A stretch of 64,000 nt of DNA. Source: Chiloscyllium plagiosum. Taxonomy: Eukaryota. The DNA lies in contig NC_057746.1 in assembly GCF_004010195.1 (NCBI RefSeq), positions 536,901-600,900 of the forward strand, in the 5' to 3' direction. Below the pieces are notes generated by a model, which worked only from the letters and a program-made list of their open reading frames with translations, did not search any database and had not been told where the DNA came from. The translations under genes and the position numbers were made by a program. Shown piece after piece: positions 3,100-57,075 of this stretch; positions within the stretch are counted from its first letter, which is position 1, and the number at the start of each line of letters is the position of its first letter.

Positions 3100-4030
3100 A
3101 GGGATGTGTTGTTTGATGCAGTCAAAGATATGTTGTGATGTGTGTCCCATCAAAACTCATTTACTATATTATCGGTAGTCCCTGGACTGCAAATGAGTTC
3201 GGATCTTGAGTTCGTTCACAAGTTTATTTCTATGCAAGTCAGAACACAATGCAGCACAATATAGAATAGCCATTCATAAGTACAGGAAGTGTTCATATAT
3301 TGGATCTGTAAGATTACACCACTAAGTGGGATTGCATTTGTAAGTGTGAGAATTTGTCAGCCAGATGCTCATAAATTAGGGACCTCTTTGTGTTCTTATT
3401 TGTGTGCTCGGCAAGACCTTTTCCTGCCTTGACAGCAGCATCCTGTTGGTTCACAATTCCGTTTGTGTGGAAACTGCAAAGTCATAGCGTGAGATGACTG
3501 GCTCAGCTGCTCCGAATTTTGGATCATTTTCTCTTTCCAGGGTAGTCTGAGGTATACAGGTCACCTTTCAGGGTTGAAAGTGGAAGTCACAGCCTCTTTC
3601 AGGAGTTTGTACAAACACAGCGAATGTTGATCTGATCAGCGAATCTATTCTTGTGCAAGATCATCTTGATAGGCCCTATCTCAGCATCAAACTCACACGG
3701 TGAGCAGATGGATAGAGCTTTACCCACCAGTTTGCAGACAAGATTGATCTTGTGGTGTATGGAGCTGTAGGAATCCTAATATGTGATTGAAAGGAGTAAC
3801 GAATCCATTAGTAAATTTCTCAACAAACACTTTGAGTAAAGGGAACTTGTTTGACAGCTCCACCTTAACGGTAAATTTGAGCGTAGGATCGTGTTTCATA
3901 AGTTCTTTCATGACATCATTTGGTAATGCAAGTGAATACAGCCCCAGTCTGTCACTAAACAATAGTCTTTCACTTTTCTGTATGAACTTTGATCTTTCCT
4001 CATCATATACTTTTAATAAATCCAAAAAAT
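3100..4030 (-). mobile_element. Old Penelope-like RT fragment
   Basis: PTLKFTVKVELSNKFPLLKVFVEK resembles the PLE RT C-terminal segment. Heavily decayed. Confidence 0.55.
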
Positions 4031-6383: not shown

Positions 6384-6715
6384 TCAATGTGCATTGTGTT
6401 GTTCCAATAAACTCTGCATTGCCTCTTGTTCCTCACTGGTGGTTACGAATTCTGTTACATTGCTACCTAGATGATATTTCACTGTGTTTCTATCAGAAAC
6501 GTTGCTTGCAGGGTTTAATTTGTCTGTTTCTGAGGGACTCTCTTCTTCATTTGTGGCTTTATTCCCTCCCTCCAGGCCACGTGGATAGTTTGACTCTCTC
6601 TGTAAGGGCTGTGTTTTGAGCTGGGGCTCAGATTTGCTCATCAGCTTCAGTTCCACATTCTTATCCATGATTTCCTGCTGGCGGAGGGTGGGCCTGGTCT
6701 CCAGAAAGGGCTGAG
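6384..6715 (-). CDS. Gene A putative exon 6, long cytoplasmic tail (about 110 aa) to TGA
   Basis: Acceptor attaattccAG in the correct phase. Open hydrophilic frame AQPFLETRPTLRQQEIMDK...SEEQEAMQSLLEQHNAH* in non-repetitive DNA. No family motif confirms it. Confidence 0.55.
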
Positions 6716-11518: not shown

Positions 11519-11638
11519 CTCTCCATGGCTGTTTCCAGATGAGTATTCCAATTATCCCGACAAGAACAAATAATGCGCTGATTGTTGACCCGGTTAAGAT
11601 TCCGAGATGAAGGTATCCCACACTATTTTCTGGAATTT
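11519..11638 (-). CDS. Gene A exon 5, connecting peptide and transmembrane helix
   Basis: Acceptor tatgtttcAG, 120 nt, donor GTAAGA, phase 1-1. EIPENSVGYLHLGILTGSTISALFVLVGIIGILIWKQPWR is a hydrophobic run followed by basic stop-transfer residues. Confidence 0.85.
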
Positions 11639-12088
11639 CTGAAACATAATTGAATAATATCAGGATTGTTTCTCTGATCTTCAATATATTTTCAGTGTTC
11701 TGTTGGCCTAGTTTGATCCTGTTCTATCTTCCAGGAAGATGTTATCTAACCTCGGGATCAACATGACTGATATTTCCACATGGACAGTATACTGACTGAA
11801 AGCATCTCCATTTCAACTGAATTGCAGGTTAGCTCTTCACACAAACACCGTGATAAAAATCAATCCCCAACCTTGTTCGCAAACCGATAATGTACTGCAG
11901 GGGCAGAGTGAGGTTAGGGACATAGCAATTAAGGCATTCAAGACCTGAGCAGCTTGGCTGTCACTCCATTACTGATCTGAGGGAATGCTGCACTGCTCAG
12001 TGGCTGGGGGAACAATGCTGAGGCACGGCTGCATGGTGAAAGGGACACTGTCCATGGAGCTGTTGGAGGGGACATACTCAGGCAATGT

Positions 12089-12681
12089 TGCACTATTCTG
12101 AGGGAGTGCTGCACTGTTGGAGGGTCAGTACTGAGGGAGTGCCACACTGTCAGAGGGTCGGTACTAAGCGAGTGCCGCACTGTCGGAGAGTCAGTACTGA
12201 GGGAGTGCCACACTGTCAGAGGGTCAGTACTGAGCAAGTGCCGCACTGTTGGAGGGTCTGTACTGAGGGAGTGCTGCACTGTTGGAGGGTCAGTACTGAG
12301 GGAGTGCCACAATGTTGGAGGGTCAGTACTGAGGGAGTGCTGAACTGTTGGAGGGTCAGTACTGAGGGAGTGCCGCACTGTTGGAGGGTCAGTACTGATG
12401 GATGGAGATGTTGCACTGTCAGTGGGTCAGTACTGAGGGAGTGCTGCACTGTCAGAGGGTCAGTACTGAGGGAGTGCCACACTGTTGGAGGTCAGGACTG
12501 GGGGAGTGCCACACTGTTGGAGGTTCAGCACTGAGGGAGTGCCGCACTGTCAGCGGGTCAGTACTGACGGAGTGCCGCACTGTCAGCGGGTCAGTACTGA
12601 GGGACTGTTGCACTGTCAGCGGGTCAGTACTGAGGGAGTGCCGCACTGTCAGAGGGTCAGTACTGAGGGAATGCTGCACTG
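12089..12681. repeat. 33-bp minisatellite, about 18 copies
   Basis: Unit CACTGTTGGAGGGTCAGTACTGAGGGAGTGCC(A/G). Confidence 0.95.
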
Positions 12682-16007: not shown

Positions 16008-16286
16008 CCCACTGATAGAGCTGGGCCTCTGCCAGGCTGCTGTGGTCAATGTGACAGGAGTATTGATCCTCATCCCCAGCATTGATCTCAATCTCTTTCT
16101 GGATCTGATGGGTCCCATCGTGGTTCGGTCGAACCCCCTAGGATTGGGTCTCAGACATGACCTCTCCATTCCTTAGCCAGGTCACCTCGATGTCTACAGG
16201 ATCAAACCCAGTGACCAGGCAGGAGAGAGTGAGCGGCTTGCCCTGACGACTGGGCTCCCTCCTGGAGATGAACACTTCAGGCTGAA
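16008..16286 (-). CDS. Gene A exon 4, alpha3 Ig C1-set domain with premature TAG
   Basis: Not in the ORF track. 279 nt between AG and GTAAGG: VQPEVFISRREPSRQGKPLTLSCLVTGFDPVDIEVTWLRNGEVMSETQS*GVRPNHDGTHQIQKEIEINAGDEDQYSCHIDHSSLAEAQLYQW. Both Ig cysteines, the core Trp, PNxDGT and YSCxxxH are present. Confidence 0.93.
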
Positions 16287-16402: not shown

Positions 16403-16678
16403 CTTTCCTTTTAAGATATTCCTTTCCAATGCTTAAGCGTGATTTTAAACGTTCAACAAGTTCAACTTCCATCAGCCATTTCCAAAACTTGTTCCAGGAT
16501 TCATCAGAATCCCATTTCTGTTTAGTCTTCACTGCGTTGTGATGTGATGCGACCCATCGCATTCTGTCTGACTCCAAACTAATGTAGTCCTTTCCATCAA
16601 AGGCAACACTCATTGTTCTCTTAATGGAGCCATCTTCAGACAGCTCAACATTCCTTATCCATTGCAAAATGTGCATTC
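16403..16678 (-). CDS. Gene A exon 3, MHC class I alpha2 domain (no cysteines)
   Basis: Acceptor tctttgacAG, 276 nt, donor GTGTGT. GMHILQWIRNVELSEDGSIKRTMSVAFDGKDYISLESDRMRWVASHHNAVKTKQKWDSDESWNKFWKWLMEVELVERLKSRLSIGKEYLKRK contains HILQ, AFDGKDYI and TKQKW. Confidence 0.95.
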
Positions 16679-16944
16679 CTGTCAAAGATAAACAGGGAAA
16701 TAAATCAAATTTTCACGGGAGAAAGGTACTCAATGGGTTCAGTATTAGAGTAAATTTCTCTGATGGCTCAGAATTATACTCCCTGACACACATTTGCACC
16801 CATCATTACATTAGTAACACCCTCTGTGAACTTGGTATTACAGTCTTAGATCCCACAGTGGGCACTGTATTATACTCTGCAGGCTCAGATTTACAACAAT
16901 AAGTTTCTCTATGTTCAGTATTACAACAATGGGTCTCTCTGACT

Positions 16945-19165
16945 CATAGAGTCACAGAGATGTACAGCACAGAAACAGACCCTTCAGTCCAACCCATCCA
17001 TGCCAACCAGATATCCCAACCCAATCTAGTCCCACCTGCCAGCACTTGGCCCATATCCCTCCAAACCCTTCCTATTCATATACCCATCAGAGCACTTTAA
17101 ATGTTGCAATTGTACCAACCTCAACCACTTCCTCTGGCAGCTTATTCCATAGGTACCCGCCTCTGTGTGAAAAAGTTGCCCCTTAAGTCCCTTTCATATC
17201 TTTCCCCTCTCACCCTAAACCTACGCCCTCTAGTTCTGGATTCCCCCACCCCAGGGAAAAGACTTTGTTTATTTATCCTATCCATGCCCTTCATGCTTTT
17301 ATAAACTTCTATAACATTAGTTTAGATTCCCTACATGTGGGAATAGGCCCTTCGGCCCAACAAGTCCACACCGACCCTCTGAAGAGCAACCCACCCAGAC
17401 CCATTCCCCTACATTTACCTCTGACTAATCCGCCTAACACTAGTGGTAATTGAGCATGGCCAATTCCCCTAACCTGCACATCTTTGAACTGTGGGAGGAA
17501 ACAGGAGTACTCAGAGGAAACCCATGCAGACACGGGGAGAATGTGCAAACCCCACACAGACTGTTACCAGAGGCTGGAATTGAACCTGGGTCTCTGGTGC
17601 TCTGAGTCACCGTGCCGCCCCGGTGAGGTCACCTGGGGTCACCCCTTAGCCTCCGATGCTCCAGGGAAAACAGCCCCAACCTGTTCAGCCTCCCTCTATA
17701 GCTCAAACCGTCCAACCTTGATAACATCTTTGTAAATTGCTTCTGAACCTTTTCAAGTTTCACAACATCTTTCCGATAGGAAGGAGACCAGAATTGCACG
17801 CAATATTCAAACAGTGGCCGAACCAATGTCCTGTATAGCCGCAACATGACCTCCCAACTCCTGTACTCAATACTCTGACCAATAAAGGAAAGCATACCAA
17901 ACGTCTTCTTCATTATCCTATCTACCTGCGACTCCACTTTCAAAGAGCTATGAAGCTGTACCCCAAGGTCTCTTTATTCAGCAACACTCCCTAGGACCTT
18001 ACCATTAAGTGTATAAGTCCTGCTAAGATTTGCTTTCCCAAAATGCAGCACCTCACATTTATCCGAATTAAACTCCATCTGCCACTCCTCAGCCCATTGG
18101 CCCATCTGATCAAGATCCTGTTGTAATCTGAAGTAACCCTCTTCACTGTCCACTACATCTCCAATTTTGGTGTCATCTGCAAACTTACTAACTGTATCTC
18201 TTATGCTCACATCCAAATCATTTATATAAATGATGAAAAGTAGAGGGCCCAGCACAGATCCTTGTGGCACTCCACTGGTCACAAGCCTCCAGTCTGAAAA
18301 ACAATCCTGCACCACCACCCTCTGTCTTCTACCTTTGAGCCAATACTGTATCCAAATGGCTAGTTCTCCCTGCATTCCATGAGATCTAATCTTGCTAATC
18401 AGTCTCCCACGGGGAACCTTGTCAAACACCTTACTGATGTCCATATAGATCATGTCAATCGCTCTGCCCTCATCAATCCTCTTTGTTACTTCTTCAAAAA
18501 GCCATGTTGACTATCCCTAATCAGTCCTTGCCTTTTCAAATACATGTACATCCTGTCCCTCAGGATTCCCTCCAACAACTTGCCCACCACTGAGGTCAGG
18601 CTCACTGGTCTATAGTTCCCTGGCTTGTCCTTACCACCCTTCTTAAACAGTGGCACCACATTTGCCAACCTCCAGTCTTCTGGCACCTCACCAGTGACTA
18701 TTGATGATACAAATATCTCATCAAAGAGCCCACTTCTCTAGCTTCCCACAGAGTTCTAGGGTACACTTGATCAGGTTCTGGGGATTTATCCACTTTTATG
18801 TGTTTCAAGACATCCAGCACTTCCTCCTCTGTAATATGGACATTTTCAACATGTTTCCCTACATTCTATATCTTCCATATCCTTTTCCACAGTAAACACT
18901 GATGCAAAATATTCATTTAGTTTCTCCCCCATCTCATGCGGCTCCATACAAAGGCCGCCTTGCTGATCTTTGAGGGGCCCTATTCTCTCCCTCGTTACCC
19001 TTTTGTCCTTAATGTATTTGTAAAAACCCTTTGGATTCTCCTTAACCCTATTTGCCAAAGCTATCTCATGTCCCCTTTTTGCCCTCCTGATTTCACTCTT
19101 AAGTATATTCCTACTGCCTTTATACTCTCCTAAGGGTTCATTCGCTCTATCCTGTCTGTACCTGA
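16945..19165 (-). mobile_element. CR1/HER1-like LINE, 5'-truncated, interrupted by a SINE
   Basis: [34 protein letters not shown] and YRTLVRPLFEYCVQFWSP. SINE at about 17320-17620. Confidence 0.92.
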
Positions 19166-20889
19166 CATGGGTTCAGTATGATGTGAATAAATACCTGTGA
19201 GCTGTGCCTTGCAATAATGGATACACTATGTACTCATACATTAATAAAACCCTTGTGTCTGTGCCATCTTTGAAAGGGCACTGTGCACCTGAATAAATAT
19301 TGGCAATCTGCTGCTGCCCATCATTGGCAACCTAATGGCACAGTAGCCATAAAGGCATATTCCCCATAGCACACGGCTGACATTATTTACATCACACGTA
19401 CAATTCCATTCTCTCACCTCAGTCACTGTTTAACCACCACACTGGACCCGTCCTTGGCAGAGTCCTGGCTGAACACCCTCTAAGGCAGTATTACATTGAC
19501 CCTAATGCAACTTGCCATTGTCCAGTGGGGATACATCACAGAGAGGCAAGCAAGCAGACATTTCCAACCACAAACGTGACCTTTTATTTACCAAAACTGA
19601 AATGAAGCCAACAGAGGCTGAATTACATCCCACAGTACCAACCAGGTTTTGGTATCATGACCGAAAAATGTTCCAGTCCACAATGGTCTGCTGCAACCAG
19701 TCTCTTCAATGAGGTTCTGTCAAGTGTGTTTTGTTTGTGCAGCTGAGCTCTGTCATGGTCAATGTCAGCTTCCCCTGGGTGTGGAAGAAGGTGACACTGC
19801 ACCTCAGTAAGGTTAATTAAATTACATAAAGAAACGGCCAAGTATTAGTTTTTTAAGTGTCGAAGGAGACATGAGAGGGACGTCCGAGGACCACATCCCA
19901 ACGGACAGTCCTTTAGGAAAAATGTTAAGAGATTGGAAGTACAATCCTCAGACATGAGGAAATGATAAAAAAAAAGATAAAATGTCAATTGAAAACAGCC
20001 TTACAGTCAGGAGGAACTTCGTGTCAGAAGGGCTACTGAGGGTACACTTCGTAACTAACTTATAGCCAGACATCCAAAAATATATTCAAACCCTAGAGGA
20101 GTCATTGTGGGAAGCTCAAAGTGTCTTGAGATACGGTGTCTCTGTGTGTGTGTGTGTGTGTGCGTGTGTGAGTGAGAGAGAGAGAAAAGAGCTGTACAGC
20201 TGGTAGAAAGTTTAACCCGTTGTGATTCAGTTTGAATGCACATTTGTTTGTTGGTGATTTGAGTGTTTGTGATTCGGCCATTATTCATGCATTAGAAGTT
20301 TTTTTTTAATGACCTATAGCATGGTAGTTGAGCGGTGGCTGGTCGGGACTACTTGGGAGGACTAGTTTTGGATTTGAATCAGGGGACTAAAAACCGGGTA
20401 GTTGTGGTGGATTTCAAGGTTGGGAGCTGTATGCATTTCACATTTTGAATATTAAACACTGAATAAATGAATTTATAATATATAAATATATATTTACAAG
20501 TAAGATTCCAAAATGTATAGTTAGGAACAGGCTTTAAAGAAAAGCAAGCATAAATTGATAAATTGTATTTGAGATTACAGGGAGCAAGAAATATTGCAAT
20601 ATTTATTTTTAAAAAATCAAGGTCTAAACAAACATTGCGTGATGAGGAATGGCCATGACGTGGCCCTAAGGCTGTTCAGTTGGTTAAATGGGCTCAGCAA
20701 TTGATCTGGCAACGTAACATGGGAAGCAGAAACAAAAAGGCAAAAATAATGCTAGCCCACGGTTGATGAGGTAATAAAGAAAAGGACAAAACTAAAAGGA
20801 GAAGGAAACCGGAATGGTGGTGGGCAGCATGTTGAACATAAAGGGAGGAGAAGGGATCGGGGAGGAGATGTGAAGGGGTCTGGTGAATA

Positions 20890-21170
20890 GGAACAAGGAT
20901 CGAAGTGGAAATCCCCACAGGTGGGATGTAATTACTGTGAAAGGACGGGTCACTTTAAGGGAGAGTGTCCAGATCCGAAAAAGGACGTAAAGGCAGTACC
21001 GTTTATGAACCTTGATGAAGAATAGGGATGTCAGGAGATCCTGCCCCCGGGGACTCACCAGGAACCCTTGATAAATTTAAAGGTGGGACCTTACAAAGAG
21101 GACGTAGTTTTCCAAGTCGATACGGGGGCAGCAAGGTCATCCTTAAATTTTAAGCCCAAGGCAGTGGGAA
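20890..21170 (+). pseudogene. gag: ERV gag C-terminus, gag-pro TAG junction and protease N-terminus
   Basis: CNYCERTGHFKGEC (CX2CX4HX4C) at 20927-20968. TAG at 21023-21025 is followed in frame by ...HQEPLINLKVGP...FQVDTGAARSS. Confidence 0.88.
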
Positions 21171-21469
21171 CGAAAGAGTTATTTGGATTATGGTGACAGT
21201 TTTGTGATGAGAGGCACGAAGAATCAGTTTTGCGCTCATGACAAAATACTGCCACCAAATTGGGGATTGAATTAACTGCAAATGGTGCTATGGAATCTGT
21301 TCAGGTTCTTAAAAATGAATGTGCTCGAGCAAAACAATTACAGAAACAGAATCAACGCAAGATCCGCTGAAACTCAGGCTAAAGGGACTTTGAGTAACTG
21401 ATTATACAGTGGTGACGCGAGTGCGGGATTATATATTAAGTCTTTTTGTGCTTCAGGGTTATGTTACTA

Positions 21470-23332
21470 GCTCTCCCCCACATCAGGTACGGACCATACT
21501 AAATCAGAAAGCAGGACAATGGCTCACAGACTCTCGGATCTTGAAATATGAGACAATCTTAATAGAACAGGATGACCTTGTGTTAGTCACAGACAGTTGC
21601 TTGAATCCAGCTGCATTTCTGTGGTGGGGAGAGGGGGGTGGCCCTTGGCAATCCAGAACATGATTGCCTTGACATTACTGAATATCAGACTAAAGTACTG
21701 ATGAACTTAAGAGAGGTACCGTTGCATGCGGGAGCTCAGTTGTTTATCGATGGGTCCTCCCAGTGATTGAGGGTAAAAGGCATTATGGATATGCTGTAGT
21801 AGACGGGATAGAGGGAAGCGTTATCGAGGCTGAAAGACTGCCTGACGGCTGGTCGGCCCGGGCTTGTGGGCTCTGTGCCCTGGGGGGAGCTCTCGGAACC
21901 TTGGAGGGCAGGGGAGGAGCGGTGTGTACCGACTCCAGGTGTGCGTTTGGAGTGGTACATACCTTTGGAGGGATTTGGCAGGAAAGAGGACTGATAAATA
22001 GCAGAGGAAAAGAACTAGCTCATGAGGAATCGATAAAACAAGTGCTGGAATCCTTTTACTCCCGAGAGAAATAGCAATAGTTCATATAAACGGACATCAG
22101 AAGGGGAATGAACCGGAAACAAGGGGAAATAGACTGGCCGATGAGGGAGCAGTGATCTCCTCCCTAATATCTGCAATTCCAGATCTCCAGGGTACCCCGT
22201 TGTTTACTGCAAAGGAGGAAAAGGGACTAAAAGATTTAGGAGCTGCAAAGACAGCAGATGGGCACTGGATGTTACCCGATGGGAGGGAAATGTTGAATAA
22301 AATGATGATGCAAGAGATTATAGCTGTCCTACATCAGGGGAGTCACTGGGGAGTGATGTGATTTAGTCGTAAGGAAACATGGATGTAAGGGATTATATAC
22401 ATTGGCAAAACAGATATGCCAATGGGTGTACAACTTGCCAAAAGATTAATAAGAAAGTAATGAGAGGGGGCTCCAAGAGGAGGAAGAAACCCAGGGGTGA
22501 GACCCTTCCAAAGAATACAGGTGGATTACACCGAACTACCCCCAGTAGGGAAACAAAAGTACTTATTAGTCCTAATGGATCACCTACCTGGGTGGGTGGA
22601 GGCATTTCCAATGTCCTAAGCTACCTCGAAGGGAGTAGTGAAAACTCTTTTAGAACATATAATCCCTCGATATGGAGTGGTGGAAAGTATAGATTCAGAC
22701 CAAGGTAGCCATTTTACCTCTAAGATCCTACAAGAAGTAATGGCGGGATTAGAGATCTCTTGGGAATTCCACACCCCTTGACACCAACCTTCCTCTGGAC
22801 GGGTGGAACGAATGAATCAAACCTTAAAGAAGCAATTGTCTAGGCTAGTCCTGGAGACTCGATTACCATGGACAAAATGTTTACCTAACGCATTGCTACG
22901 CATTAGGACTGCGCCTAGACGTGATATAGGCCTCTCTCCTTATGAGATGATGTTTGGATTACCTTTCTTGGGTGGAAGAGGGGAATTACCAACTGTAGAG
23001 TTCAATAATAAGTTTTTAAAGAACTATATTGTGGCGCTCGGCTCTTCTTTGTCGGTCCTTAGGAAGAAGGGTCTGTTGACCCAGATACCTCCACTTGAGT
23101 TCGACAACCGGGTGACTGGGTCCTGATCAAGACCTGGAAAGATACCAAACTCCACCTGAGCTGGGAGGGACCATTCCTAACCCTCCTGACTACTGAGACA
23201 GCTATCCGGACTGCTGAGAAAGGGTGGAGTCATCACACTCACGTTAAAGGTCCTGTGAACGCCCCATTGGCGGAGTGGCACGCCCGTCCTACAGACAGCC
23301 CTCTGAAAATTAAGCTGAGAAAGAAGGAATGA
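21470..23332 (+). pseudogene. pol: ERV pol remnant: connection, RNase H, integrase
   Basis: PHQVRTILNQKAGQWLTDSRILKYE; LFIDGSS; LHQGSHWG; SSGRVERMNQTLKKQLSRLVLETRLPWTKCLPNALLRIRTAPRRDIGLSPYEMMFG. Several frameshifts and stops. Confidence 0.92.
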
Positions 23333-24700
23333 ACTGAGACAAAAGACTCTTAATGTTTGATGATATCTATTGTTATTAATTGTAAGGGCTGCGTGGACTC
23401 ACCTCTCCCTGGCACCTAAAAGATTAAGACAGAATGGTAGGCAGGGGTCAGAGATGGGCGGGTACTGGTATAGTATTGTGATGTTAGTAGTACTGACTGT
23501 TCAAGGAAGCGGGCACTACACTGTGCCAAAATTATGCTAAACAAGAGGGACTTGCCGACTGTTGGGTCTGTGCAGAGGTCCCACACCATGGTGAATCTGG
23601 AATCCCCACCTCGGTAATACCGCATACCAAAAGGGAAGTGTACGATGTACAACAATTTGACTCGGGCTCAAATAATACAAAGTGGAAATCTGAAAGAAGC
23701 AAATATAACTTTGTGGGATGGTTCCCTAGACCAGCCCCGAAAACTCAGGGTGTTATCGATAGCCTTAGAGTTTCCCCACCGAAGGGAGCAGTGAATACCA
23801 CCTGTTTTTGTAATCAGAATGACGCCGCACCCTTCCAATTAGGAAAATCATCTTGAGTCTACACCAACTAAGCTACAGCCACGACCACTCCTCGAATATT
23901 AAACGGAACATATTGGGTATGCGGTCTGAAGGCCGATCCATTTATTCCCGGGGAAAAATACATTCGCGTGAAAACACTGCCTCAAGACGAGAAAGGCTGG
24001 AGTGGCTGCTGTTACTTCGCTTATATAGTCCCTCACCTGGGAATAGAAAAACATGAGCCCAACCTGAGAAAGGAAGGGGGATAAGACGTAAGACCCGAGA
24101 GGTCTCTGAAGGAGACCGCCTGCTGTGGACACTACTCCCAAACTACGGCACTACAAGGGCAGGGGTGGAAATACAGAAACTGGCGGCTGCCCTTGAAAAT
24201 TTAATTAATGATACCACCGGCGCAATGGGAGAAACTCAATCCCAAATATCGGCCATAACCACCGAAATGATTGCCACAAGACTAACAGTTTTACAGATTC
24301 GAATGGCTTTAGACTATCTTTTGGCCGAAAAAGGGGGAACCTGTGCTCTGATTGGTAAGGAATGTTGCACCTTCATCCCAGACATCTCTTCCATAGTGGA
24401 AGATAAGGCAGAAATAGTAAAGAAAAAGATAAGCAATATAAGATGAAGGATGGGGATGGGGTGACCAGAGACTGACTGGTTGGGGAAAATGGTTAGTTAA
24501 TTTAGGCATTTATGTATTACTAATAATAGTAGGTCTATTGATAGGGTTTAATGTGTTAAAATGGATAATGACTAAGCTGGTAATGTCTTTGGGAGGACAA
24601 CAATCAATAATGGTCATGACAATAGCACAAGCGCAATAAAGATTACTCCTAGAGTTTGAAAAAGACAGACTTAGAAGGACAGAAATGGCTAGATTGTGAA
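23330..24700 (+). pseudogene. env: ERV env remnant, gamma-type TM
   Basis: Furin-like RRKTR at 24084-24098, a heptad repeat, then LQIRMALDYLLAEKGGTCALIGKECC (immunosuppressive domain plus CX6CC) at 24291-24368. SU and membrane anchor are disrupted. Confidence 0.9.
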
Positions 24701-24781
24701 CCCCTGCACTATAGGGTGAAAAGAGGTTAGAAAATAAAATTGCAAAAACAACAAATGGTTAAAGAAAAGAAATGGGGGAGT

Positions 24782-25394
24782 TGTAAGAAATGGGGAAGTG
24801 TGTTGGTTTTGCTGCAGATATAGAAAAGCAAGAGTGTGTATGTGCAGGAAAGAGGTACAAGAAAAATATTAGTTAAGCAAGCATTAGGGAAATGTTTCTT
24901 AATCCTTAATGTATAATAGTGGATAATTGAATACTAACTTTACTGCAGAATTTCTTCATAACATTTGAAATAATAGTCTCAGCAAAATAGTTGAGATAGC
25001 TGAAACGGATAGACTAAGCACTAAAAGATACATTGTTAAAACGTATGTTCAGGAATGGAATGTACCTATGGACAAGTAAAGTGAAGAAGGAACATCAAGA
25101 TACATGTTTAGCCTTGTGTCAGCACTTACAGAGGGAAAGGTTGCCAACTTCGAGAGAAGGGGGCAATAAGGGTGGAGCACAGCTGGGCAATGGCAGAATA
25201 CTAAGAAAGATGGGGTAATGTAGGAATCGGGAGAGATGACCTCACGCAACTCAAAGGTATAACTGTGTCGTACTTTGAATTCTCTTTGCTCATTTGCTTC
25301 TGCAATTGATGCCCTTACTTGCAAGTTCGTAATAAATTGTCTTGTTTCCAGTTTTGGTGGTCTCGTCTAAATTTTATTAAGTTTGTTTCTAACA
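24782..25394 (+). repeat. ERV 3' LTR
   Basis: Purine-rich tract AAAGAAAAGAAATGGGGGAG (24761-24780), then TGTAAG...; AATAAA at 25331; ends ...CTAACA. The right end is inferred because no second LTR is available to compare. Confidence 0.65.
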
Positions 25395-26724
25395 GTTGTG
25401 AGTGCAACAGCGTTCTTCCCAGGAGGAAGATGAGGACATTGAGTAGGAAGAACATCACCATTTGCATGATAGAGCAGCATCGGACACAGTGAGCTAAAAG
25501 TTAACTGGCAGCCGATTCCAAGTGTTAGATCAAGTCGCGATTCACTGATTGTCAATTTGTTGCTGCCCTCAAAAGGCAAGTAGACCTTGTTTAGTCTCAA
25601 AAGCAACTGCTCATTTATGTTGGTTCTTTCTTCGTTTTGTGTAATAAACGTTGACAGTAATGACTATTTGACTTTACAATATTCAGGGAAAAATGAACAT
25701 TCCTTCAAAATTCTAACATTGTGTGTTGCTTTATTCCTGTAGCTGCGTTACAACGACAATTATCAGCCAGGTAATGATTTGAAATGCAACATTTTCGAAT
25801 GAGAGAAATTAGAATGAGAATTAGAATTAGAATCTCTGCAGTCTGGCAACAGACCCTTCGGCCCAACAGGTCCACACTGACCCTCCAAAGAATATCTCAC
25901 CCAGACCCATTCCCCTACCCTGAGTACGAGAGATTTCCCCTGACTAATGCACCGAGCTTACACATCCCTGAACAGTATGGGTAATTTAGCATGGACAAGT
26001 CACATTTTTATAAATGTGAGATTTTACTTACAAGTGAAGTGTCGCTGTACCATCCTGTGCCCTCTCACTAAGTCAAGGTGTAGTCCTGGGTGCAGGGAGA
26101 TTGGCCTATCGGGGACTCTGTTGGCTGTGAAGGTTTAGGTGGACCACCCTGATGGGGAAGGGAGAGGTGTTTGTGGCTGGAGCTCCCAGCCACACTAAGA
26201 TCGAATGGGCTTCCTCCTACAAGTGGGTGCCAGACAGCATTACCCTGTCTCCTTGACAGAAAGGAACTCCTGGAGTAAGGTCAAAATCCCTTGCACACTC
26301 TTGCCTTGCTGTTGATACTGGGCACCAATGGCGACTATATTGGAGTACAGGTCTGTATCAGTTTCTGTAGCCACTGAATGTTCTACTTGACTTCAAGGTA
26401 GCGGCATGGTAGGAGGGCTGAGCCGGGGGCCCATCAGCTTTCTTTCTCCTTCTTTTCTTTTTTTTTTAAACCTTTGCTCTTTTGCTTTTTGTCTTTGTTT
26501 TCTGCCGAGCCTGGGAAGTGACGGATGAAGGAGGAGGTCTCCAGCACCAGCAACACCAGGATGAACTGGACACAGCTCCAACCCAACCAGGGGGTCTCCC
26601 GGCAAGACAGGGGAGCAGGTCCTGGGCTGACTCCCCCTGGACCAGACTTGCAGGCTAGGCCAAGGTTCCAGGCCTGCACCTAGGCTTGGGGCCTGAAAGA
26701 GCACAAACAGATGGCAGGTTGGCA

Positions 26725-27095
26725 ACAGCATCTGGAGGAGGGTTAGATGAGGAATAGGACGTATGGGATCCTGCATATCTGGAGGAAGGTTGGATGGAGA
26801 ACAGGAGGTATGGGACCCTGCACATCTGGAGGAGGGTTGGATGGGGAACAGGGAGTATGGGACCCTGCATATCGGGAGGAGAGTTGGATGGTGGACAGGA
26901 TGTCTGGGACCCTGCATATCGGGAGGAGGGTTGGATGCTGGGTGGGGGATATCAGACCCTGCACACCTGGATGAGCATGGGATGGGGGACAGGGGTGTAT
27001 CGGACCCTGCACGTCTGGAGAAGGGGGTGTGGGTCCCTACACATCTGGAGGAGAGTTGGATGGGAACAGGGGGTATGGGTCCCTACACATATCCA
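26725..27095. repeat. 47-bp minisatellite, about 8 copies
   Basis: ggaccctgca recurs at 26813, 26860 and 26907. Confidence 0.9.
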
Positions 27096-28299
27096 GACCC
27101 AGCTCAGACACGGCGGTCACAGGAGTGGCAACAGCAGAGTCCTGGAGCCCGTTATAGAGACCCTGGGGCTTGTTTCACAGACTCTCGCCAAGCAGCAATG
27201 AGAAGAGAGAAAGACCAATTCTATTGCAGTAAAACTTTGCGTTATATTGAGTGTTTCAAATGGCGCTGAGTGTGGTGACACTATGTTTCAAACACCTTTT
27301 ACTGTATTTTTATATAGATGTGACAATAAATCTCAATCTCAATCACAGTCGCCCACCTGTCCATGGAGACAGTCAGACACATATGCCAGAGCTGGCACAG
27401 CACCCAGTTTATGAAGTGACACCTGCTTGCTGCTCCTTTGTCTGGTTATGGATTTGCACAAAGTTGTAATGGGCTTCCCTCTTGCCTGGAGCTGAGCAGG
27501 GTCCTGGGCCCTGGTCGGCCTAAAAGTGCCAGCAGCCTGGGCTGGGTCAGTGATGTGTTCCTCACTGAACGTTAGCCTACACACCCACTGGGGTCTTGGT
27601 ACATGACCTGTCAGAGGCTGCTGAAGACAGCCTTATCCTGCGAGGGATCAGTGGCTTCTCCCTCGGAGGGGGAGGAGAAAGGGGAGAGTTACCGGAGGAT
27701 GCAGCTCGTGCCTGCAGAAGGTAAGCGAGGGGATTGCACGACTGTGGTCAAAGCTTGAGCAAGCTAAGCGGACATTTAGTGCAGAGTTTGATGGGAGCAC
27801 AGCATGGTGGGTCTTGTTGTCCGCTAGGACATGCTGAGATCAACATCAGCCCACAAGCATTCACGGTCTCTCATCCTTCCCACATGAGGGGGCTGACAAG
27901 ACAAACATTGGCCTCTCCATGACCCGTCGTGGTGATTCCTCCCAAAACAATACAAAGGGAGGGACTGAGTGAGCTGAATGTGGCTGTTGGTTAGGGATGA
28001 GGAAAGCTCCAAACGGACCCCACCACCAAGGATATATTTCCCTCCCCTCCCCTCCCAAAACAATACAAAGGGAGGGACTGAGTGAGCTGAATGTGGCTGT
28101 TGGTTAGGGATGAGGAAAGCTCACAAGATGTGTGAGTAGGAAACAGAGAGCAAAACAGGGCCGGTAAGTTGCGGGGATGGGCTGGGTCACAGCCTTTGAG
28201 TGGAATTGCCGCATGCAATAGTGAGAGTGTAAGGGCATGAGCGTTGGTGGGAGGTGGGTGCAGTGGCGGAGTTAGAATGGGTGTGAGACAGCAAAGAGA

Positions 28300-28600
28300 A
28301 TATGGCAGCACTTAGCTTTGCAGTGCAGAAGGCGTCAGACTTTCTTGAAACATTGCTGTGTGTTCCTCTGGATCATGGATGTGCCACTGACCCAGACAGT
28401 AACCTCAGAGCAGGGCCTGGTACTGTGGTCTCCTCTGGATCAATGGTGCTGGAAGAGCACAGGAGTTCAGGCAGCATACCCTGTGGTCTCCTCTAGCAGC
28501 CCTGGAGAAAGACGATGACCCTCCTGTCCACCAGCAGGGCCTCCAGGTGTAGATAGCTAAAGCAGTATGCTAGCTTGGGTCTCTCAGACACCTCCTTTAG
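28300..28600 (-). mobile_element. Harbinger-type Myb/SANT-like domain remnant
   Basis: FSYLHLEALLVDRRVIVF...EVTVWVSGTSMIQRNTQQCFKKV. Interrupted by a 44-bp Penelope-like piece flanked by CTGTGGTCTCCTCT repeats (28423-28436, 28481-28494). Confidence 0.5.
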
Positions 28601-30043
28601 AAACTGGGTGATGGCACAAACTGTGACGGATAATAGTTGGCCTATAGCATTTGAAAGGGCGCACAGCCTCAGTTTAAATATGGCCTTGGCGATGTAACCA
28701 CAAGACAGTCTCAGTCCTGCTAACCATTACCGCCACTACTGAGTGCAAGAGCATGTGGGAGCAGGATTCGAGCCACCCGACGCATGGAGGAAGAACGCCT
28801 CATCCTCCGTCTTGTGATCCTCCAACCACACCAGATCAATGTGGATTTCACCAGTTTCCTCATCTCCCCTTCCCCCCACCTTGTCCCAGATCCACCCTTC
28901 CAACTCAGCACCGTCCTCTTGAACTGTCCCACCTGTCCATCTCCCTTCCCACCTTTCCACTCCACCTTCCACTCTGACCTATCCCCACCTCCAGCCCCAC
29001 TCCCCCCCCATCATTCCTGATGCAGAGCTCATGCCCAAAACGTCGACTCTCCTGCTCCTCGGATGCTGCCTGACTGGCTGTGCTTTTCCAGCACCACACT
29101 CTCCAACTCTGGAGTCTAGAAGAGTGAGGGGCTACTTGACCGAAGTGTGTAAGATCTTGAATACTGTTGAGAAAGTGGATGTGCAAAGGACTTTCTCTTA
29201 GCGGTGAGTCTAGAATGAAGGGCACGGCTTTAAAATGAGGTCTCCCTCTTTCAGGACAGAGAAGAGGAGAATTTTGTTTCTCTCCAAGGATTGGGAAACT
29301 CTGGAACTCCTGGCATCAGAAGATGGAGGAAGCGGAGTGATTATATATTTTTAAGACTGAGTCAATAGATTCCTTTTGGGCAAGGGAATGCGAGAGTTAT
29401 TGGGAGTCGTTTGAAATGCAGAATTCAAAACACAAATGAAAAAAAAACAAATCAAACAGCCCCTGGCTCCAGTTTCATATGACAAAGTTACCATTGCTCG
29501 TGGAGGTAAATCCCTAATAAAGCCTCCAAAAACTGACATTTAGCCAAAATATGAGAAAACTCAGTCCACCATATTCCTGCCATTTCCTGTTGTTCCAGCT
29601 GGAGGTGCTGCTCACAATCAATGTGACCAAACGAATCACCCTGAGCAAGTAATACCCTCGACACATAGAACCCTGCATTACCAAACACAAGAGTGTGCAG
29701 CTTTCCAAAGTTAAAGCGTATCATTCCAAATCCTGGGAACCAAATACACCAACATGGCAGGTTGATGAGCATAATGAGTTGTACATGAACCTCCAAATGA
29801 TATTTGATAAAGTGCCAATAACAGGCTTGTCAGCAATGTCAAAGGTAATGGAATAAAAAGGACGTTGCAGCATTAATAGGAACTTGCCGAGTGACAAGGA
29901 ACAGGGTAGTGATTAACGGTTGTTTATAAGAATGGAACCAATTATATGTATACAGGAATTTCCCAGGGAATGAAGCATTGCTTTTGTTGAGCAGTAATCA
30001 TGATATAGACATGGATAGATAGGGTACAATCTCTCCTGTATTC

Positions 30044-30071
30044 CTGATGAAGGGGTTTTGCCCGAAACGTC
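30044..30071 (+). ncRNA. Minimal type I hammerhead ribozyme core
   Basis: CTGATGA-A-GGGG-TTTT-GCCC-GAAAC-GTC, with one stem II mismatch. Confidence 0.55.
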
Positions 30072-30249
30072 GATTTTACTGCTCCTTGGATGCTGCCTGA
30101 ACTGCTGTGCTCTTCCAGCACCACTAATCCAGAATACAATCTCAAAGCATGCAGGTGAACTAAAATATGGATTTATTGTCAACTGCAGGACTGATATTGT
30201 TAAACTTCAAGAGGACATAGATTAATGAGTGGTCAGATAAGTAGCAGAT

Positions 30250-30657
30250 CTTGGAGTGCAGGTTCATAGCTCCTTGAAAGTGGAGTCACAGGTACATAGG
30301 ATAGTGAAGAAGGCGATTGGTATGCTTTCCTTTATTGGTCAGAGCATTGAGTACAGGAGTTGGGAGGTCATGTTGCAGATGTACAGGACATTGGCTAGGC
30401 CACTGTTGGAATATTGTGTGCAATTCTAGTCTCCTTCCTATTGGAAAGATGTGAAACTTGAAAAGGTTCAGAAAGGATTTACAAGGATGTTGCCAGGGTT
30501 GGAGGTACAGAGAAACAGAGAGAGGCTGAACAGGCTGGGGCTGTTTTCCCTGGAGGGTTGGAGGCTGAGGGGTGACCTTACAAAATTACGAGGGGCATGG
30601 ATAGGATAATTAGACAAAGTCTTTTCCCTGGGGTAGGGGAGTCCAGAACTAGAGGGC
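30250..30657 (+). mobile_element. CR1/HER1-like LINE fragment running into a gap
   Basis: Reverse-complement match to the 17630-17950 and 38700-39120 LINE sequence. Confidence 0.85.
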
Positions 30658-31493
30658 NNNNNNNNNNNNNNNNNNNNNNNNNNNNNNNNNNNNNNNNNNN
30701 NNNNNNNNNNNNNNNNNNNNNNNNNNNNNNNNNNNNNNNNNNNNNNNNNNNNNNNNNNNNNNNNNNNNNNNNNNNNNNNNNNNNNNNNNNNNNNNNNNNN
30801 NNNNNNNNNNNNNNNNNNNNNNNNNNNNNNNNNNNNNNNNNNNNNNNNNNNNNNNNNNNNNNNNNNNNNNNNNNNNNNNNNNNNNNNNNNNNNNNNNNNN
30901 NNNNNNNNNNNNNNNNNNNNNNNNNNNNNNNNNNNNNNNNNNNNNNNNNNNNNNNNNNNNNNNNNNNNNNNNNNNNNNNNNNNNNNNNNNNNNNNNNNNN
31001 NNNNNNNNNNNNNNNNNNNNNNNNNNNNNNNNNNNNNNNNNNNNNNNNNNNNNNNNNNNNNNNNNNNNNNNNNNNNNNNNNNNNNNNNNNNNNNNNNNNN
31101 NNNNNNNNNNNNNNNNNNNNNNNNNNNNNNNNNNNNNNNNNNNNNNNNNNNNNNNNNNNNNNNNNNNNNNNNNNNNNNNNNNNNNNNNNNNNNNNNNNNN
31201 NNNNNNNNNNNNNNNNNNNNNNNNNNNNNNNNNNNNNNNNNNNNNNNNNNNNNNNNNNNNNNNNNNNNNNNNNNNNNNNNNNNNNNNNNNNNNNNNNNNN
31301 NNNNNNNNNNNNNNNNNNNNNNNNNNNNNNNNNNNNNNNNNNNNNNNNNNNNNNNNNNNNNNNNNNNNNNNNNNNNNNNNNNNNNNNNNNNNNNNNNNNN
31401 NNNNNNNNNNNNNNNNNNNNNNNNNNNNNNNNNNNNNNNNNNNNNNNNNNNNNNNNNNNNNNNNNNNNNNNNNNNNNNNNNNNNNNNNNNNNN
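30658..31493. other. Assembly gap
   Basis: Run of N, flanked by a LINE and a TG-rich microsatellite. Confidence 1.
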
Positions 31494-33114
31494 TGTGGGT
31501 GTGGTATGATGCATGTGGTGTGTGTGTGTGTGTGTAGTGTGGTGGGTATGATGCGGTCTGTGTATGTGTGTGGGGTATATGTATGGTGTGTGTGGTGTGG
31601 CGTTTGTGGTGTGGTGTGGTGTGTGTGTGTGGTCAGGACAATTCTGCTCAGACACAATCATTTGATTTCTTTTCTATTGGCCAGTTGTGTGGGTTCAGGA
31701 GAGCTCAACATCGCAACAGCTCCTTGATAGGCTCTGGCCTTGCATATGGACAATAGAGAAGCGGAAAACGCCTAAATCTCTCTCTGTCTCTCATATTCTC
31801 ACTTATAATTTCCCTGCAAACTGTTCTCCTTGAAAATTCTCTTGTGGAGAATGAAAAGGAAAAAGAAATAATAAAACCTTCAGAGGCACAAGATTCTGAA
31901 CCAATGAATAAAGGCCTGAGAACCAGTATCGCCACAACCTCATGTCATTAGCACAGAACTGGAAGGAGTCAAGAGAAAACAATCACTATTATTTAGGCTC
32001 CAGATTGGTGCCGGAATTGTGCTTCTCTAGCAGTTTTTTGTCTTCCCGTCCTATAATATTGGTCTTTTTTTTGTGCGTCTGTATGTGTCTGGGAATTTTA
32101 AAAGGGGAGAGAGTTTAACTTACAGAATTCTAAGTTAGCAATTGATGATTCTTTCTTCCTATTGGTTAAGATCAGTTTGACCGTAACTAATAGTTATTTC
32201 CTTGTTAATTGAAAAGCTTGGTGTGCATGACCTGAGTTACAGGGTTGGTTAGAATTCGGCAATTTGTAGTTTACTCAAATTTTCACACTTATAATGCCTG
32301 TGGGAAAAGTGAGGCTGGATTTCCAGCTCACGACCCCTGTGAGTTGTTCGACTTCTTCCGGGTAGAATTGGTAGATTGTACAGGGAGAAACTGTTCCCAT
32401 TCACGGAAAGGTGAAAGATCAGGGGTCACCCAGTTTCTGGGACTGGCAAAGGAACCGCTGGCAACCTGAGCGAAAACTGTGCCCGTCACAGCTCAGTTGG
32501 TAACACTCTTGCATCTTAGTCACAAGGATTTGGCTTCAAGCTGTACTGTAGGCCTCAACTCAGGGCTGATCCTCCCAGGAGAGTATTAGGGGAACGCTGC
32601 TGTCTGAAGGTGTCATCCCTTTAATAAAATGTGAAACCAACACCCCACCTGCCTGTGTGGGTATAAAAGCTCTATTTAGAAGTAAAATGGGGCTATTTGC
32701 CCCAGTATCCAGCCAAAATGTATCCCTTACCTAACATGACAAAAGCAGGTGATCTGATATGGTCACACTTCTGTCTGGGGAAGTTAATTGTGCACATGCT
32801 GACTGCCACATTTCCAGTATGCGATAGTTCTACAATTCAGAAGCACTTATACAGCCTCAATGTGCTTTTAGATATTTAGTAGTTGCGAGAATCCCTATAT
32901 AAATACAAGGCTTTCCTTTTAAAAATGGTGTGTTCTCGTAGTGTGGAAAGTGCTTCCTGAGAGTGGAGACGGACTTAACAGAGGCATTCAAGAGGCAGCC
33001 AGATGCTTATACATTGAGAAAAGGGGAGCATGACAATGTCAAGGAAGGTTGAAGGAGTGGGAATGAGCACAGTTACTTATATACAGAGCCAGATTAGATT
33101 CCACAGGCTGAATC

Positions 33115-33670
33115 ATAGTCATAGTGTCTTACAGCAAGGAGACAAACCTTTCAGTTCAACCAGTCCATGCCAGAACATGATCCCATAAAAAACTACTCTC
33201 ACCTGCCTGCTCCTGGCTCATATCCCTTTAAACCATTCCTATTCATGTACTTATCCAAGTGTCTTTGAAACATTGTAATTGTACCCACATCCACCACTTC
33301 CTCAGGTAGTTTGTTCCTCCATGCAAACAAATTGTCCATGTCTTTTTTAAATCTCTCTCTTCTCACCTTAAAAATATGCCCTCTACTCTGGAAATACTCT
33401 ATCCTAGTGAAAAGATACCTCCCATTAACATTATCTGTACCCCTCGTGACTTTATAAACCTCTAGAAAGTCACCTCTCAACCTCCTAAGTGCCAGTCAAA
33501 ATAAAAGTCCCAGCCTTTATCTATAAATCAAAATTTCCATATCTAGCAGCATCCTGGTAAAATTTCTTCTGAACTCTCTCCAGCTTAATAATGTCCTTCC
33601 TGTAACAGGGTGACCAGAACTGGACACACTTCTCCTGAAGAGGCCTCACCAATGTCCCGTACAAACTCAA
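33115..33670 (-). mobile_element. CR1 LINE 3' fragment
   Basis: LYGTLVRPLQEKCVQFWSP; RGDFLEVYKV. Confidence 0.85.
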
Positions 33671-33888
33671 TGCCTTATTTCTGTGTTGCAAACATTCTAT
33701 GATTCTATAATGAGCTAATTGAACATATTGGATGTCCAGACATCTATTTTTAATATGGGTAACAAATGTGGCCAGGGTGACCCACATATGGGTACATTCT
33801 CATATTCCATTCTGTTGTATAACTGGCAGCTCTCTGGTACCTATTAAACAGGACAGCTCTGGGGGGGAATCTGAGTTGATAATCTTAC

Positions 33889-34149
33889 CTGATGTTTGGT
33901 TTGTCCCCTTCATTATTGTGTTCAGATTTTCCTTAGCCATGGTCGAAAGTGTATTCCCTTGATTTGTGAGGTATTCCCAGTACTCCTCATCAAAAGAATC
34001 CATCATCCACTGCTGCCGGGGGACTGTCCGCCTGATCTCACTATCATAATAGGTCACTGGAACTCCATTGATCATTGTTACACCAAAATACTCAGGTAGT
34101 TCAGCAACGCCAGAGGTTGCCAGAAATGCCGTAGTAATGGTATTGCTCT
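33889..34149 (-). CDS. Gene A exon 2, MHC class I alpha1 domain
   Basis: Acceptor ttttacAG, 261 nt, donor GTAAGA. Translation ESNTITTAFLATSGVAELPEYFGVTMINGVPVTYYDSEIRRTVPRQQWMMDSFDEEYWEYLTNQGNTLSTMAKENLNTIMKGTNQTS has class I motifs LPEY, YDS, PR.QWM, EYW and the N86 sequon NQT. Confidence 0.95.
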
Positions 34150-34470: not shown

Positions 34471-34522
34471 CGGGAGAGACCCGGGAAAAGCACAGGGAGA
34501 TGGAGAGAAGGATCAGCACCAT
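34471..34522 (-). CDS. Gene A exon 1, signal peptide MVLILLSISLCFSRVSP
   Basis: ATG at 34522, 17 mostly hydrophobic codons plus 1 nt, then donor GTAAGT. Closely similar to the gene B leader. Confidence 0.9.
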
Positions 34523-50514: not shown

Positions 50515-50566
50515 ATGTTGCTGATCCTTTTTTCCATCTCCTGGTGTTTCTCCCGGGTCTCTGCGG
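50515..50566 (+). CDS. Gene B exon 1, signal peptide MLLILFSISWCFSRVSA
   Basis: 52 nt from ATG to donor GTGAGT, the same length and phase as gene A exon 1. The intron start gtgagtacagaattcag matches gene A gtaagtacagaattcag. Confidence 0.85.
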
Positions 50567-56814: not shown

Positions 56815-57075
56815 ACAGAAAAATCTTCACTGCAGCTTTTATGGCTGTCTCTGGCACAACTGACCTGCCTGAATATGTTGGTGTGGGAATGATCAATGGA
56901 GTTCCTGTGGCCCGTTATGACAGTGACACCCGTCAGACAGTCTCCTTGCAGCGGTGGATGACAGATGCGTACGATGCTAATTACTGGAAAATTCTCACAA
57001 AGCAAGGGGACGAACATTCTGCCAAGGCAAGGAGGGATCTGAGGACGGTAATGAAATGTACAAACCAAACATCAG
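56815..57075 (+). CDS. Gene B exon 2, MHC class I alpha1 domain
   Basis: Acceptor ctacAG, 261 nt, donor GTAAGA. DRKIFTAAFMAVSGTTDLPEYVGVGMINGVPVARYDSDTRQTVSLQRWMTDAYDANYWKILTKQGDEHSAKARRDLRTVMKCTNQTS aligns without gaps to gene A a1 (47/87 identical by manual count). No downstream exons seen before the window end. Confidence 0.93.

What the first reader, a model, noticed from the sequence alone, without database searches (positions are those of the whole stretch)
16403..34149. Half-conserved binding groove: C-terminal anchors kept, N-terminal pocket rebuilt, a2 helix rich in Trp
By manual alignment to HLA numbering, T143, K146, W147, Y123 and Y59 are kept, but Y7->T (A in gene B), Y159->L, W167->R, Y171->R and Y/R84->G. 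The a2 helix reads SWNKFWKWLM and position 97 is W. Inference: the A pocket cannot anchor a peptide N-terminus in the classical way. The two arginines plus the aromatic residues suggest an anionic or amphipathic non-peptide ligand, an N-terminally extended or modified peptide, or a closed groove.
Basis: partly seen in the sequence, partly recalled or inferred. Interest (0 to 1): 0.75.

Follow-up and report, generated by a model that had tools for sequence, protein, structure and literature searches.

The report
Shark UEA-type MHC-I, arginine-pocket subclade
This is one copy of a large shark-wide family of non-classical immune display (MHC class I) genes, likely the published UEA lineage; the altered groove residues are real but shared by relatives, and three arginines fixed at one end of the groove would likely hold a negatively charged ligand that nobody has identified.

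Summary
All residue calls are confirmed (Y7T, Y159L, W167R, Y171R, R84G; Y59, Y123, T143, K146, W147 kept; W97). They are not peculiar to this gene. It belongs to a multicopy shark class Ib family: of 53 aligned members none has Y7, W167 or C101, and W147/W152/W156/M114 are near-universal. A published nurse-shark reference (PMC10751288 supplement) is 66% identical in alpha2 and 86% in alpha3 with the same Trp helix. The family is most likely UEA; the defining paper was not available. The scan already reported this family on other shark DNA.

Added here: R99, R167, R171, E/D163, G24 and G67 are invariant in a well-supported 13-protein subclade from five shark orders, while 3 of those 13 have lost T143 and K146. 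So the basic A/B end is the stable feature and the 'kept' C-terminal anchors are dispensable. The best guess is an anion-binding, MR1-like pocket (about 40%); HLA-F-like long peptides and a filled groove remain open. This copy has a TAG in alpha3, not seen in other runs, though alpha3 contigs collapse paralogs. Groove geometry could not be computed. New member of a known kind.

The parts
34471..34522 (-). Gene A leader exon (ATG at 34522)
   Evidence: tblastn to P0049 16/17 identical, GT donor
33889..34149 (-). Gene A alpha1 exon (T7, G24, Y59, L63, G67, G84; NQT glycosylation site at 86)
   Evidence: Pfam MHC_I E 4e-7; AG/GT borders; residues
16403..16678 (-). Gene A alpha2 exon (W97, R99, V101, M114, Y123, T143, K146, W147, W152, W156, W158, L159, L164, R167, R171); no cysteine
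   Evidence: Pfam MHC_I E 1.5e-15; alignments to PDB class I chains; spliced contigs
16653..16655 (-). R99 codon
   Evidence: numbering
16449..16451 (-). R167 codon (CGT)
16437..16439 (-). R171 codon (CGC)
16008..16286 (-). Gene A alpha3 exon (Ig C1-set)
   Evidence: Pfam C1-set E 1.8e-9 on the part before the stop; tblastn 91% to P0049
16138..16140 (-). In-frame TAG in alpha3 (codon 246 of 440; Ser in the ortholog)
   Evidence: not seen in laid contigs of 6 runs, which collapse paralogs
11519..11638 (-). Gene A connecting peptide/transmembrane exon
   Evidence: tblastn 87% to P0049; AG/GT
6384..6715 (-). Gene A cytoplasmic exon (about 110 aa tail; no YxxPhi or acidic dileucine motif found)
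50515..50566 (+). Gene B leader exon (head-to-head paralog)
56815..57075 (+). Gene B alpha1 exon (A7); its alpha2 is not in the window
   Evidence: Pfam MHC_I E 4e-8; 90% to P0018

Best explanation
This is a six-exon shark non-classical MHC class I gene, likely of the UEA lineage, from a subclade in which the N-terminal end of the groove carries three fixed arginines that would likely bind a small anionic ligand rather than a peptide N-terminus. Shown: gene structure; splicing in public runs; class I fold predicted for the intact ortholog; family-wide loss of Y7, W167 and the alpha2 disulfide; invariance of R99, R167, R171, E/D163, Y59, L63, G24 and G67 across 13 proteins from five shark orders. 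Inferred, from recalled HLA pocket maps: small residues (T7, G24, T34, T45, G67) open a cavity at the A/B end, the arginines line it, and W97/M114/W147/W152/W156 wall off the middle of the groove. That layout resembles MR1, where an aromatic cradle plus two Arg holds small metabolites, including a phosphate, at the A' end while F' stays empty. The protein would pair with b2m, load a phosphate-, carboxylate- or sulfate-bearing ligand, and display it to innate-like T cells or NK-type receptors. This assembled copy has an alpha3 stop and would be a null allele, or make only an alpha3-skipped form, unless the stop is an assembly error.
For: Gene model and single stop. Spliced alpha1-alpha2 and alpha2-alpha3 contigs. 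36 of 80 and 68 of 167 candidates are homologs, and every named one is a shark protein. Family clade 100/99, separate from the UAA, UBA, UDA and UGA-type rows (lineage names matched by eye to the references). The published nurse-shark reference has the same alpha2 helix, W97, R99, V101 and L164; by my hand count it is 61/92 identical in alpha2 and 80/93 in alpha3. UEA is described as the multicopy lineage beside UDA and as one of two expanded shark Ib families. Arg subclade 100/99. A-end net charge +2.5 versus +0.3 in the other 40 family rows and -0.4 in 56 other class I rows. 9 of 11 subclade-diagnostic residues map to the A/B end. 3 of 13 members lack T143 and K146. MR1 pocket chemistry (PMC12058573 passages). 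AF2 model of the ortholog: pLDDT 94, TM 0.89-0.94 to classical bird and shark class I chains.
Against: No ligand data, and no coordinates were available to measure the groove. A-end identity in the subclade (0.75) only equals its non-pocket background (0.735). The contrast comes from the rest of the family diversifying there (0.38 versus 0.648), and 58 of 178 columns are invariant in the subclade anyway. The 13 rows represent only 3-4 paralog lineages. R167 and R171 could be neutralised by E163/E166 or point to solvent. 10 of 13 keep T143/K146/W147 and a hydrophobic F pocket, as an HLA-F-like peptide binder would. There is no equivalent of MR1 Lys43 among the pocket residues examined. The published reference is labelled 'UCA' and the supplement never uses 'UEA'; equating them is my inference plus recall of Almeida 2021.
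Confidence: 0.42

Rival explanations
1. HLA-F-like peptide display: long or N-terminally overhanging peptides are anchored only at the C-terminal end (T143/K146/W147, hydrophobic F pocket), and the arginines favour acidic or phosphorylated residues near the N-terminal end.
For: T143/K146/W147 are kept in the window and in 10 of 13 subclade rows; N77 in 11 of 13; hydrophobic 95/116/123. HLA-F blocks the A pocket and anchors 7-30+ mers at the C terminus (PMC6524545 and PMC7590165 passages). Xenopus XNC4 is said to bind 12-16 mers (PMC12562908 passage, cited there as unpublished).
Against: R84 is absent in 13 of 13, and 3 of 13 lack T143 and K146 while keeping all three Arg. Four Trp plus M114 crowd the middle of the groove (inferred).
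Confidence: 0.25
2. Filled or empty groove: the Trp/Met core closes the cleft and replaces the lost disulfide as a stabiliser, and the arginines form a surface patch for a receptor (MIC/HFE/FcRn-like; recalled).
For: W147 53/53, W152 52/53, W156 53/53, M114 53/53 and C101 0/53 are fixed together across the family.
Against: The rest of the family is strongly diversified at A and B pocket positions (0.38 and 0.37 versus 0.65 background), which suggests ligand contact. The model superposes on open-groove class I at 1.5-2.1 A, though AF2 is biased towards that shape.
Confidence: 0.18
3. Lipid or lipopeptide presentation like CD1, shark UFA/UGA, chicken YF1 or Mamu-B*098, with the arginines binding the head group.
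For: Small B-pocket residues. R66/E163, the pair that roofs the pocket in Mamu-B*098, occurs in 6 of 13 subclade rows. UFA/UGA are reported to bind lipids (personal communication there).
Against: Pocket hydropathy is -0.15, like ordinary class I (-0.09) and below UGA (+0.48). Mamu-B*098 needs small residues at 9, 97 and 99, whereas here they are F/Y, mostly W, and R. The window has Q66.
Confidence: 0.12
4. The substitutions are decay in a pseudogene and mean nothing.
For: In-frame TAG in alpha3; 8/93 differences from the ortholog in alpha3 versus 6/179 in alpha1+alpha2 (Fisher p 0.08).
Against: The intact ortholog P0049 differs at none of the positions named in the finding, and the same set is in Mustelus P0003.
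Confidence: 0.02

Closest known systems
Shark UEA non-classical class I lineage (Almeida et al. 2021, PMID 34301841; seen only as a citation; described in passages of PMC10751288 and PMC12562908)
   Same: Multicopy, shark-only in my searches, distinct from UAA/UBA/UDA/UGA. Matches the nurse-shark reference labelled 'Gcirratum_UCA_NODE_26056' in the PMC10751288 supplement (66% alpha2, 86% alpha3, hand count), including W97, R99, V101, W152, W156 and L164.
   Different: That reference has Q159, L167 and Y171, so it lies outside the R167/R171 subclade. Whether the subclade equals one of the published UEA sublineages (recalled from the abstract) could not be checked.
Dogfish UCA (Squalus acanthias AF515705)
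   Same: Also lacks both alpha2 cysteines and has W152 and W156.
   Different: Only about 29/92 identical in alpha2 (hand count); lacks T143, K146 and W147.
Classical shark UAA (6LUP; Triakis P0124)
   Same: Same predicted fold (TM 0.89) and exon plan.
   Different: UAA keeps 5/5 N-end and 4/4 C-end anchors and the disulfide; this gene keeps 1/5 and 3/4 and has no disulfide.
MR1 (works-like analogue, not a relative)
   Same: Aromatic plus arginine pocket at the A' end; F' end without a known ligand.
   Different: MR1 uses Arg9/Arg94/Lys43 and keeps Tyr7; here the Arg are at 99/167/171, with no pocket Lys and no disulfide.
HLA-F
   Same: A pocket unusable, C-terminal anchoring possible.
   Different: HLA-F blocks the pocket with W62; here the pocket residues are replaced by small and basic ones.
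Shark UGA (PDB 9CH4) and UFA
   Same: Non-classical shark class I; best PDB hit for alpha1; rmsd 1.7 A.
   Different: Separate clade, keeps the disulfide, more hydrophobic and acidic at the A end.

Membership tests
MHC class I heavy chain | Leader-alpha1-alpha2-alpha3-TM-tail exon plan and class I fold | tested here: met
   model of the ortholog
Classical class Ia (UAA) | Conserved peptide-terminus anchors Y7, Y59, Y159, W167, Y171, R/Y84, T143, K146, W147 | tested here: not met
   4 of 9 kept
Classical class Ia (UAA) | C101-C164 disulfide | tested here: not met
   V101, L164
Shark UEA | Groups with the published reference of the lineage | tested here: inconclusive
   High by-eye identity to the nurse-shark reference, but that entry is labelled UCA and no sequence labelled UEA was available
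Shark UEA | Multicopy gene family | tested here: met
   Two genes in the window; many proteins per species on one chromosome-scale contig
Shark UEA | Distinct from UAA, UBA, UDA, UGA | tested here: met
   Family clade 100/99 on a long branch; UFA was not in the tree
Shark UEA | Present in sharks, absent from rays and chimaeras (recalled) | tested here: inconclusive
   All named family hits are sharks; the one ray hit examined is UAA-type; absence was not tested on ray genomes
Shark UEA | Loss of most canonical anchor residues (recalled) | tested here: met
   Y7 0/53, W167 0/53, Y159 10/53
Shark UEA | MHC-linked cluster near UDA, BRD2, B2M | not testable with these tools
   No genome is held for the window and no marker gene was recognised in it; white shark has 13 MHC-Ib genes in both orientations at 79.63-80.21 Mb beside B2M, not mapped to my accessions
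Shark UBA | UAA-derived, keeps the alpha2 disulfide, UAA-like alpha3 | tested here: not met
   UBA-type P0133 groups with UAA, away from the window; reference sequences differ
MR1-like metabolite presenter (function) | Small-molecule ligand bound in an aromatic/basic A' pocket | not testable with these tools
   Sequence pattern only
CD1-like lipid presenter (UFA/UGA) | Hydrophobic groove lining | tested here: inconclusive
   Mean hydropathy -0.15 versus +0.48 for two UGA rows, on a classical-pocket position list; no volume measured

The most novel reading that the evidence does not exclude
The R99/R167/R171 subclade is an ancient shark class Ib type, kept in both shark superorders, that independently evolved an MR1-like anion clamp at the A/B end of the groove and presents a conserved phosphorylated or carboxylated microbial metabolite to innate-like T cells. 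In the most extreme form the clamp holds a peptide's C-terminal carboxylate, i.e. reversed peptide polarity in a class I groove (about 0.04 on its own).
Probability: 0.2. Interest if true: 0.72.

Novelty: new member of a known kind. Interest (0 to 1): 0.27.

Why it matters
The ligands of the expanded shark class Ib families are unknown (PMC10751288 section 9). The family itself is published, so this window adds little as a discovery. What is useful is a target: a subclade whose A/B end stayed constant across five orders while the rest of the family diversified there, with intact orthologs available. It is the most tractable member for ligand elution. An anionic metabolite ligand would show that MR1-type metabolite surveillance arose independently in cartilaginous fish, and a structure would show how a class I groove folds without the alpha2 disulfide.

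Tried and rejected
Misalignment as the cause of the substitutions: rejected. Pseudogene decay: rejected for the groove. UAA, UBA, UDA or UGA membership: rejected. The UEA paper was not held under DOI, PMC id or PubMed id, so what it and its supplements say on sublineages, the disulfide and arginines is unseen. Searches for held text on UEA groove features or a UFA/UGA structure paper found only brief mentions; this does not show that the subclade is unpublished. Groove volume and electrostatics: the model's coordinates were not exposed, and the fold searches give no residue-level alignment. Testing the TAG in other runs was inconclusive. All laid contigs of X1, X2, X3, X4, X7 and X13 and 3 of 3 raw reads of X21 read the Ser codon, but alpha3 depth is many times alpha2 depth, so paralogs are collapsed; X22 laid 0 reads. 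No holder was on record as RNA; splicing was seen only in contigs. The G-F-D-P change in alpha3 is not private decay: it occurs in laid contigs and in 6 stored proteins. The whole genome was not available. The ORF at 3723-4058 had no Pfam or Atlas hit. No complex prediction was run, since no binding claim rests on it.
Full report
Gene anatomy. The interval spans two exons of one minus-strand MHC class I gene. Six exons were found, all internal borders AG/GT and phase 1: leader 34522-34471, alpha1 34149-33889, alpha2 16678-16403, alpha3 16286-16008, TM 11638-11519 and cytoplasmic 6715-6384. Together they give 440 codons with one internal stop at codon 246, in alpha3. Pfam recognises alpha1, alpha2 and the first half of alpha3. 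Contigs from public runs X2 and X4 match alpha2 with no differences and continue directly into the end of alpha1; the X2 contig also skips the 116-base intron into alpha3. The gene is therefore transcribed and spliced as modelled in some samples. A head-to-head paralog (gene B) contributes a leader (50515-50566) and alpha1 (56815-57075); no alpha2 for it lies in the window. The closest proteins are from bamboo and epaulette sharks: P0049 differs at 4/87 alpha1 and 2/92 alpha2 residues.

Observation. All residue calls hold. The register of 159/167/171 is fixed by gapless HMMER alignments to solved class I chains, by constant helix length in 102 of 109 rows, by the Cys columns (56 of 56 outgroup rows) and by the published alignment containing HLA-A2. 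Position 7 is fixed by the alignment to 9CH4 and the multiple alignment. The finding omitted R99 and the loss of C101 and C164.

Family. Two searches gave 36 of 80 and 68 of 167 candidates; every named hit is a shark protein, and one hit is unnamed. I aligned 53 family rows (the ortholog plus 52 proteins, at most one per 90% cluster; fused models, most partial sequences and some further clusters were left out) with 56 other class I proteins picked from the 150 representatives. In the 53: Y7 0, W167 0, C101 0, C164 3, Y159 10, Y59 24, Y171 34, T143 40, W97 42, K146 48, W152 52, W147 53, W156 53, M114 53. The half-conserved groove and the Trp-rich helix are thus family traits. In a tree of 67 rows the family is one clade (100/99), apart from the UAA-, UBA-, UDA- and UGA-type rows; treekit warns that the long family branch meets the UGA branch, so the deep position is unsure.

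Known lineage. PMC10751288 (passages, section 9 and parts of the supplement read) describes a cluster with single-copy UDA and multicopy UEA. Its query file holds a nurse-shark sequence labelled UCA_NODE_26056 that by hand count is 61/92 identical to the window in alpha2 and 80/93 in alpha3, with W97, R99, V101, W152, W156 and L164. The dogfish UCA in the same file is only about 29/92 identical. PMC12562908 (passages) names UBA and UEA as the two expanded shark Ib families, and UBA is excluded by the tree. UEA is therefore the likely name (about 85-90%). The defining paper was not held; that UEA lacks the invariant residues, is shark-only and has three sublineages is my recall of its abstract. 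Three earlier scan reports reached the same family call on other shark DNA, seen after I had written my reading.

What is specific to this gene's branch. R167 with R171 occurs in 14 of 53 rows. Thirteen of these form, with the window, a clade supported 100/99 that includes Heptranchias, Heterodontus, orectolobiform, lamniform and carcharhiniform sharks (order names from my knowledge); the fourteenth, P0008, groups elsewhere and looks mosaic. In the 13, Y59, L63, G24, G67, R99, R167 and R171 are invariant and 163 is E or D. Net charge over ten A-pocket positions is +2 to +3, against +0.3 in the other 40 family rows and -0.4 in the 56 other class I rows. Nine of 11 clade-diagnostic residues (Y22, G24, V33, W51, Y59, G67, L164, R167, R171) map to the A/B end (pocket lists recalled from HLA structures). 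At the F end, identity is only 0.55, position 84 is G/N/S/C, and 3 of 13, the gene-B type, have I143 and E/N146. Caveats: A-end identity in the clade (0.75) equals its background (0.735), the rows are related, and a third of all columns are invariant. The safe statement is that this end was not diversified in this clade, whereas it was in the rest of the family (0.38 versus 0.648).

Structure. AF2 of the intact ortholog's ectodomain gave mean pLDDT 94.4 and pTM 0.81 with ordinary class I secondary structure. It superposes over its full length on chicken BF2, duck, shark UAA (6LUP), shark UGA (9CH4) and YF1 at 1.5-2.1 A, with Z 28-30 and no clear winner. This shows the fold only.

Mechanism. 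Y7, Y59, Y159 and Y171 hold the peptide N-terminus and W167 walls the groove (PMC8236899 section 18 and passages). With four of the five gone and three positive charges added, binding a free amino group there is unlikely. I commit to an anion-binding A/B pocket beside an aromatic mid-groove wall, analogous to MR1, where Arg9/Arg94 and an aromatic cradle bind metabolites including a phosphate ester and F' has no known ligand (PMC12058573 passages): about 0.4. Rivals: HLA-F-like long peptides (PMC6524545 and PMC7590165 passages), 0.25; filled groove, 0.18; lipid or lipopeptide as in YF1 or Mamu-B*098 (PMC12212280 and PMC4735555 passages), 0.12, weakened by average hydropathy and by large residues at 9, 97 and 99. 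Passages of PMC9586880 and PMC6769792 added nothing on this family.

The stop. TAG replaces Ser between the two alpha3 cysteines. If real, it would likely trigger decay or leave a secreted fragment; skipping the 279-base exon would keep the frame, and alpha3-less isoforms are annotated for some relatives. No laid contig from six runs shows it, but alpha3 is nearly identical among paralogs and collapses. Null allele and assembly error cannot be told apart.

Verdict. A real observation on a new member of a known, multicopy shark class Ib lineage whose ligand is unknown. The arginine subclade is a useful, testable refinement that may already be in the paper I could not read. Interest 0.27.

Noticed in passing
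window 21400-24800 (+), inside intron 2 of gene A: Fragmented retrovirus-like remnant in many stop-bounded pieces; one piece hits Pfam TLV_coat (env, E 2.4e-7), four other pieces (pol- and env-like by eye) had no Pfam hit at E 0.001. No LTR pair of 60 nt or more was found in the intron.
   Followed up: partly
window 17629-19172 (-): LINE-type reverse transcriptase remnant (Pfam RVT_1 E 1e-21); similar fragments by eye at 38.5-41.9, 50.7-51.4 and 58.3-60.7 kb.
   Followed up: partly
family-wide; window 16008-16286: The alpha3 exon is strongly homogenised among paralogs (77-91% protein identity to the window for the proteins tested, versus 56-97% for alpha2), which points to concerted evolution and makes short-read assemblies of this exon unreliable.
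   Followed up: partly
window 6384-6715 (-): The Arg subclade tends to have longer C-terminal regions (median about 122 residues after the alpha3 HSSL motif versus about 67 in the rest). The window's 110-aa tail has no YxxPhi or acidic dileucine motif and is nearly the same as the tail of gene-B-type proteins.
   Followed up: partly
window 34522 / 50515: Genes A and B are head-to-head here, whereas a fused Hemiscyllium model (P0049) has their orthologs in tandem on one strand; an assembly gap lies between them at 46139-46811. Inversion or scaffolding difference.
   Followed up: no
P0008 (Mustelus asterias): Alpha2 carries the Arg-subclade signature while the protein groups outside the subclade: probable exon shuffling or gene conversion between paralogs.
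   Followed up: no
window 26682-27010; 11980-12680; 42650-44470: Tandem repeats: a 47-nt unit in intron 2 and longer arrays evident from repetitive translations.
   Followed up: no
window 3723-4058 (-): 111-codon stop-free frame with protein-like composition; no Pfam or Atlas hit. Possibly an exon of a neighbouring gene.
   Followed up: partly
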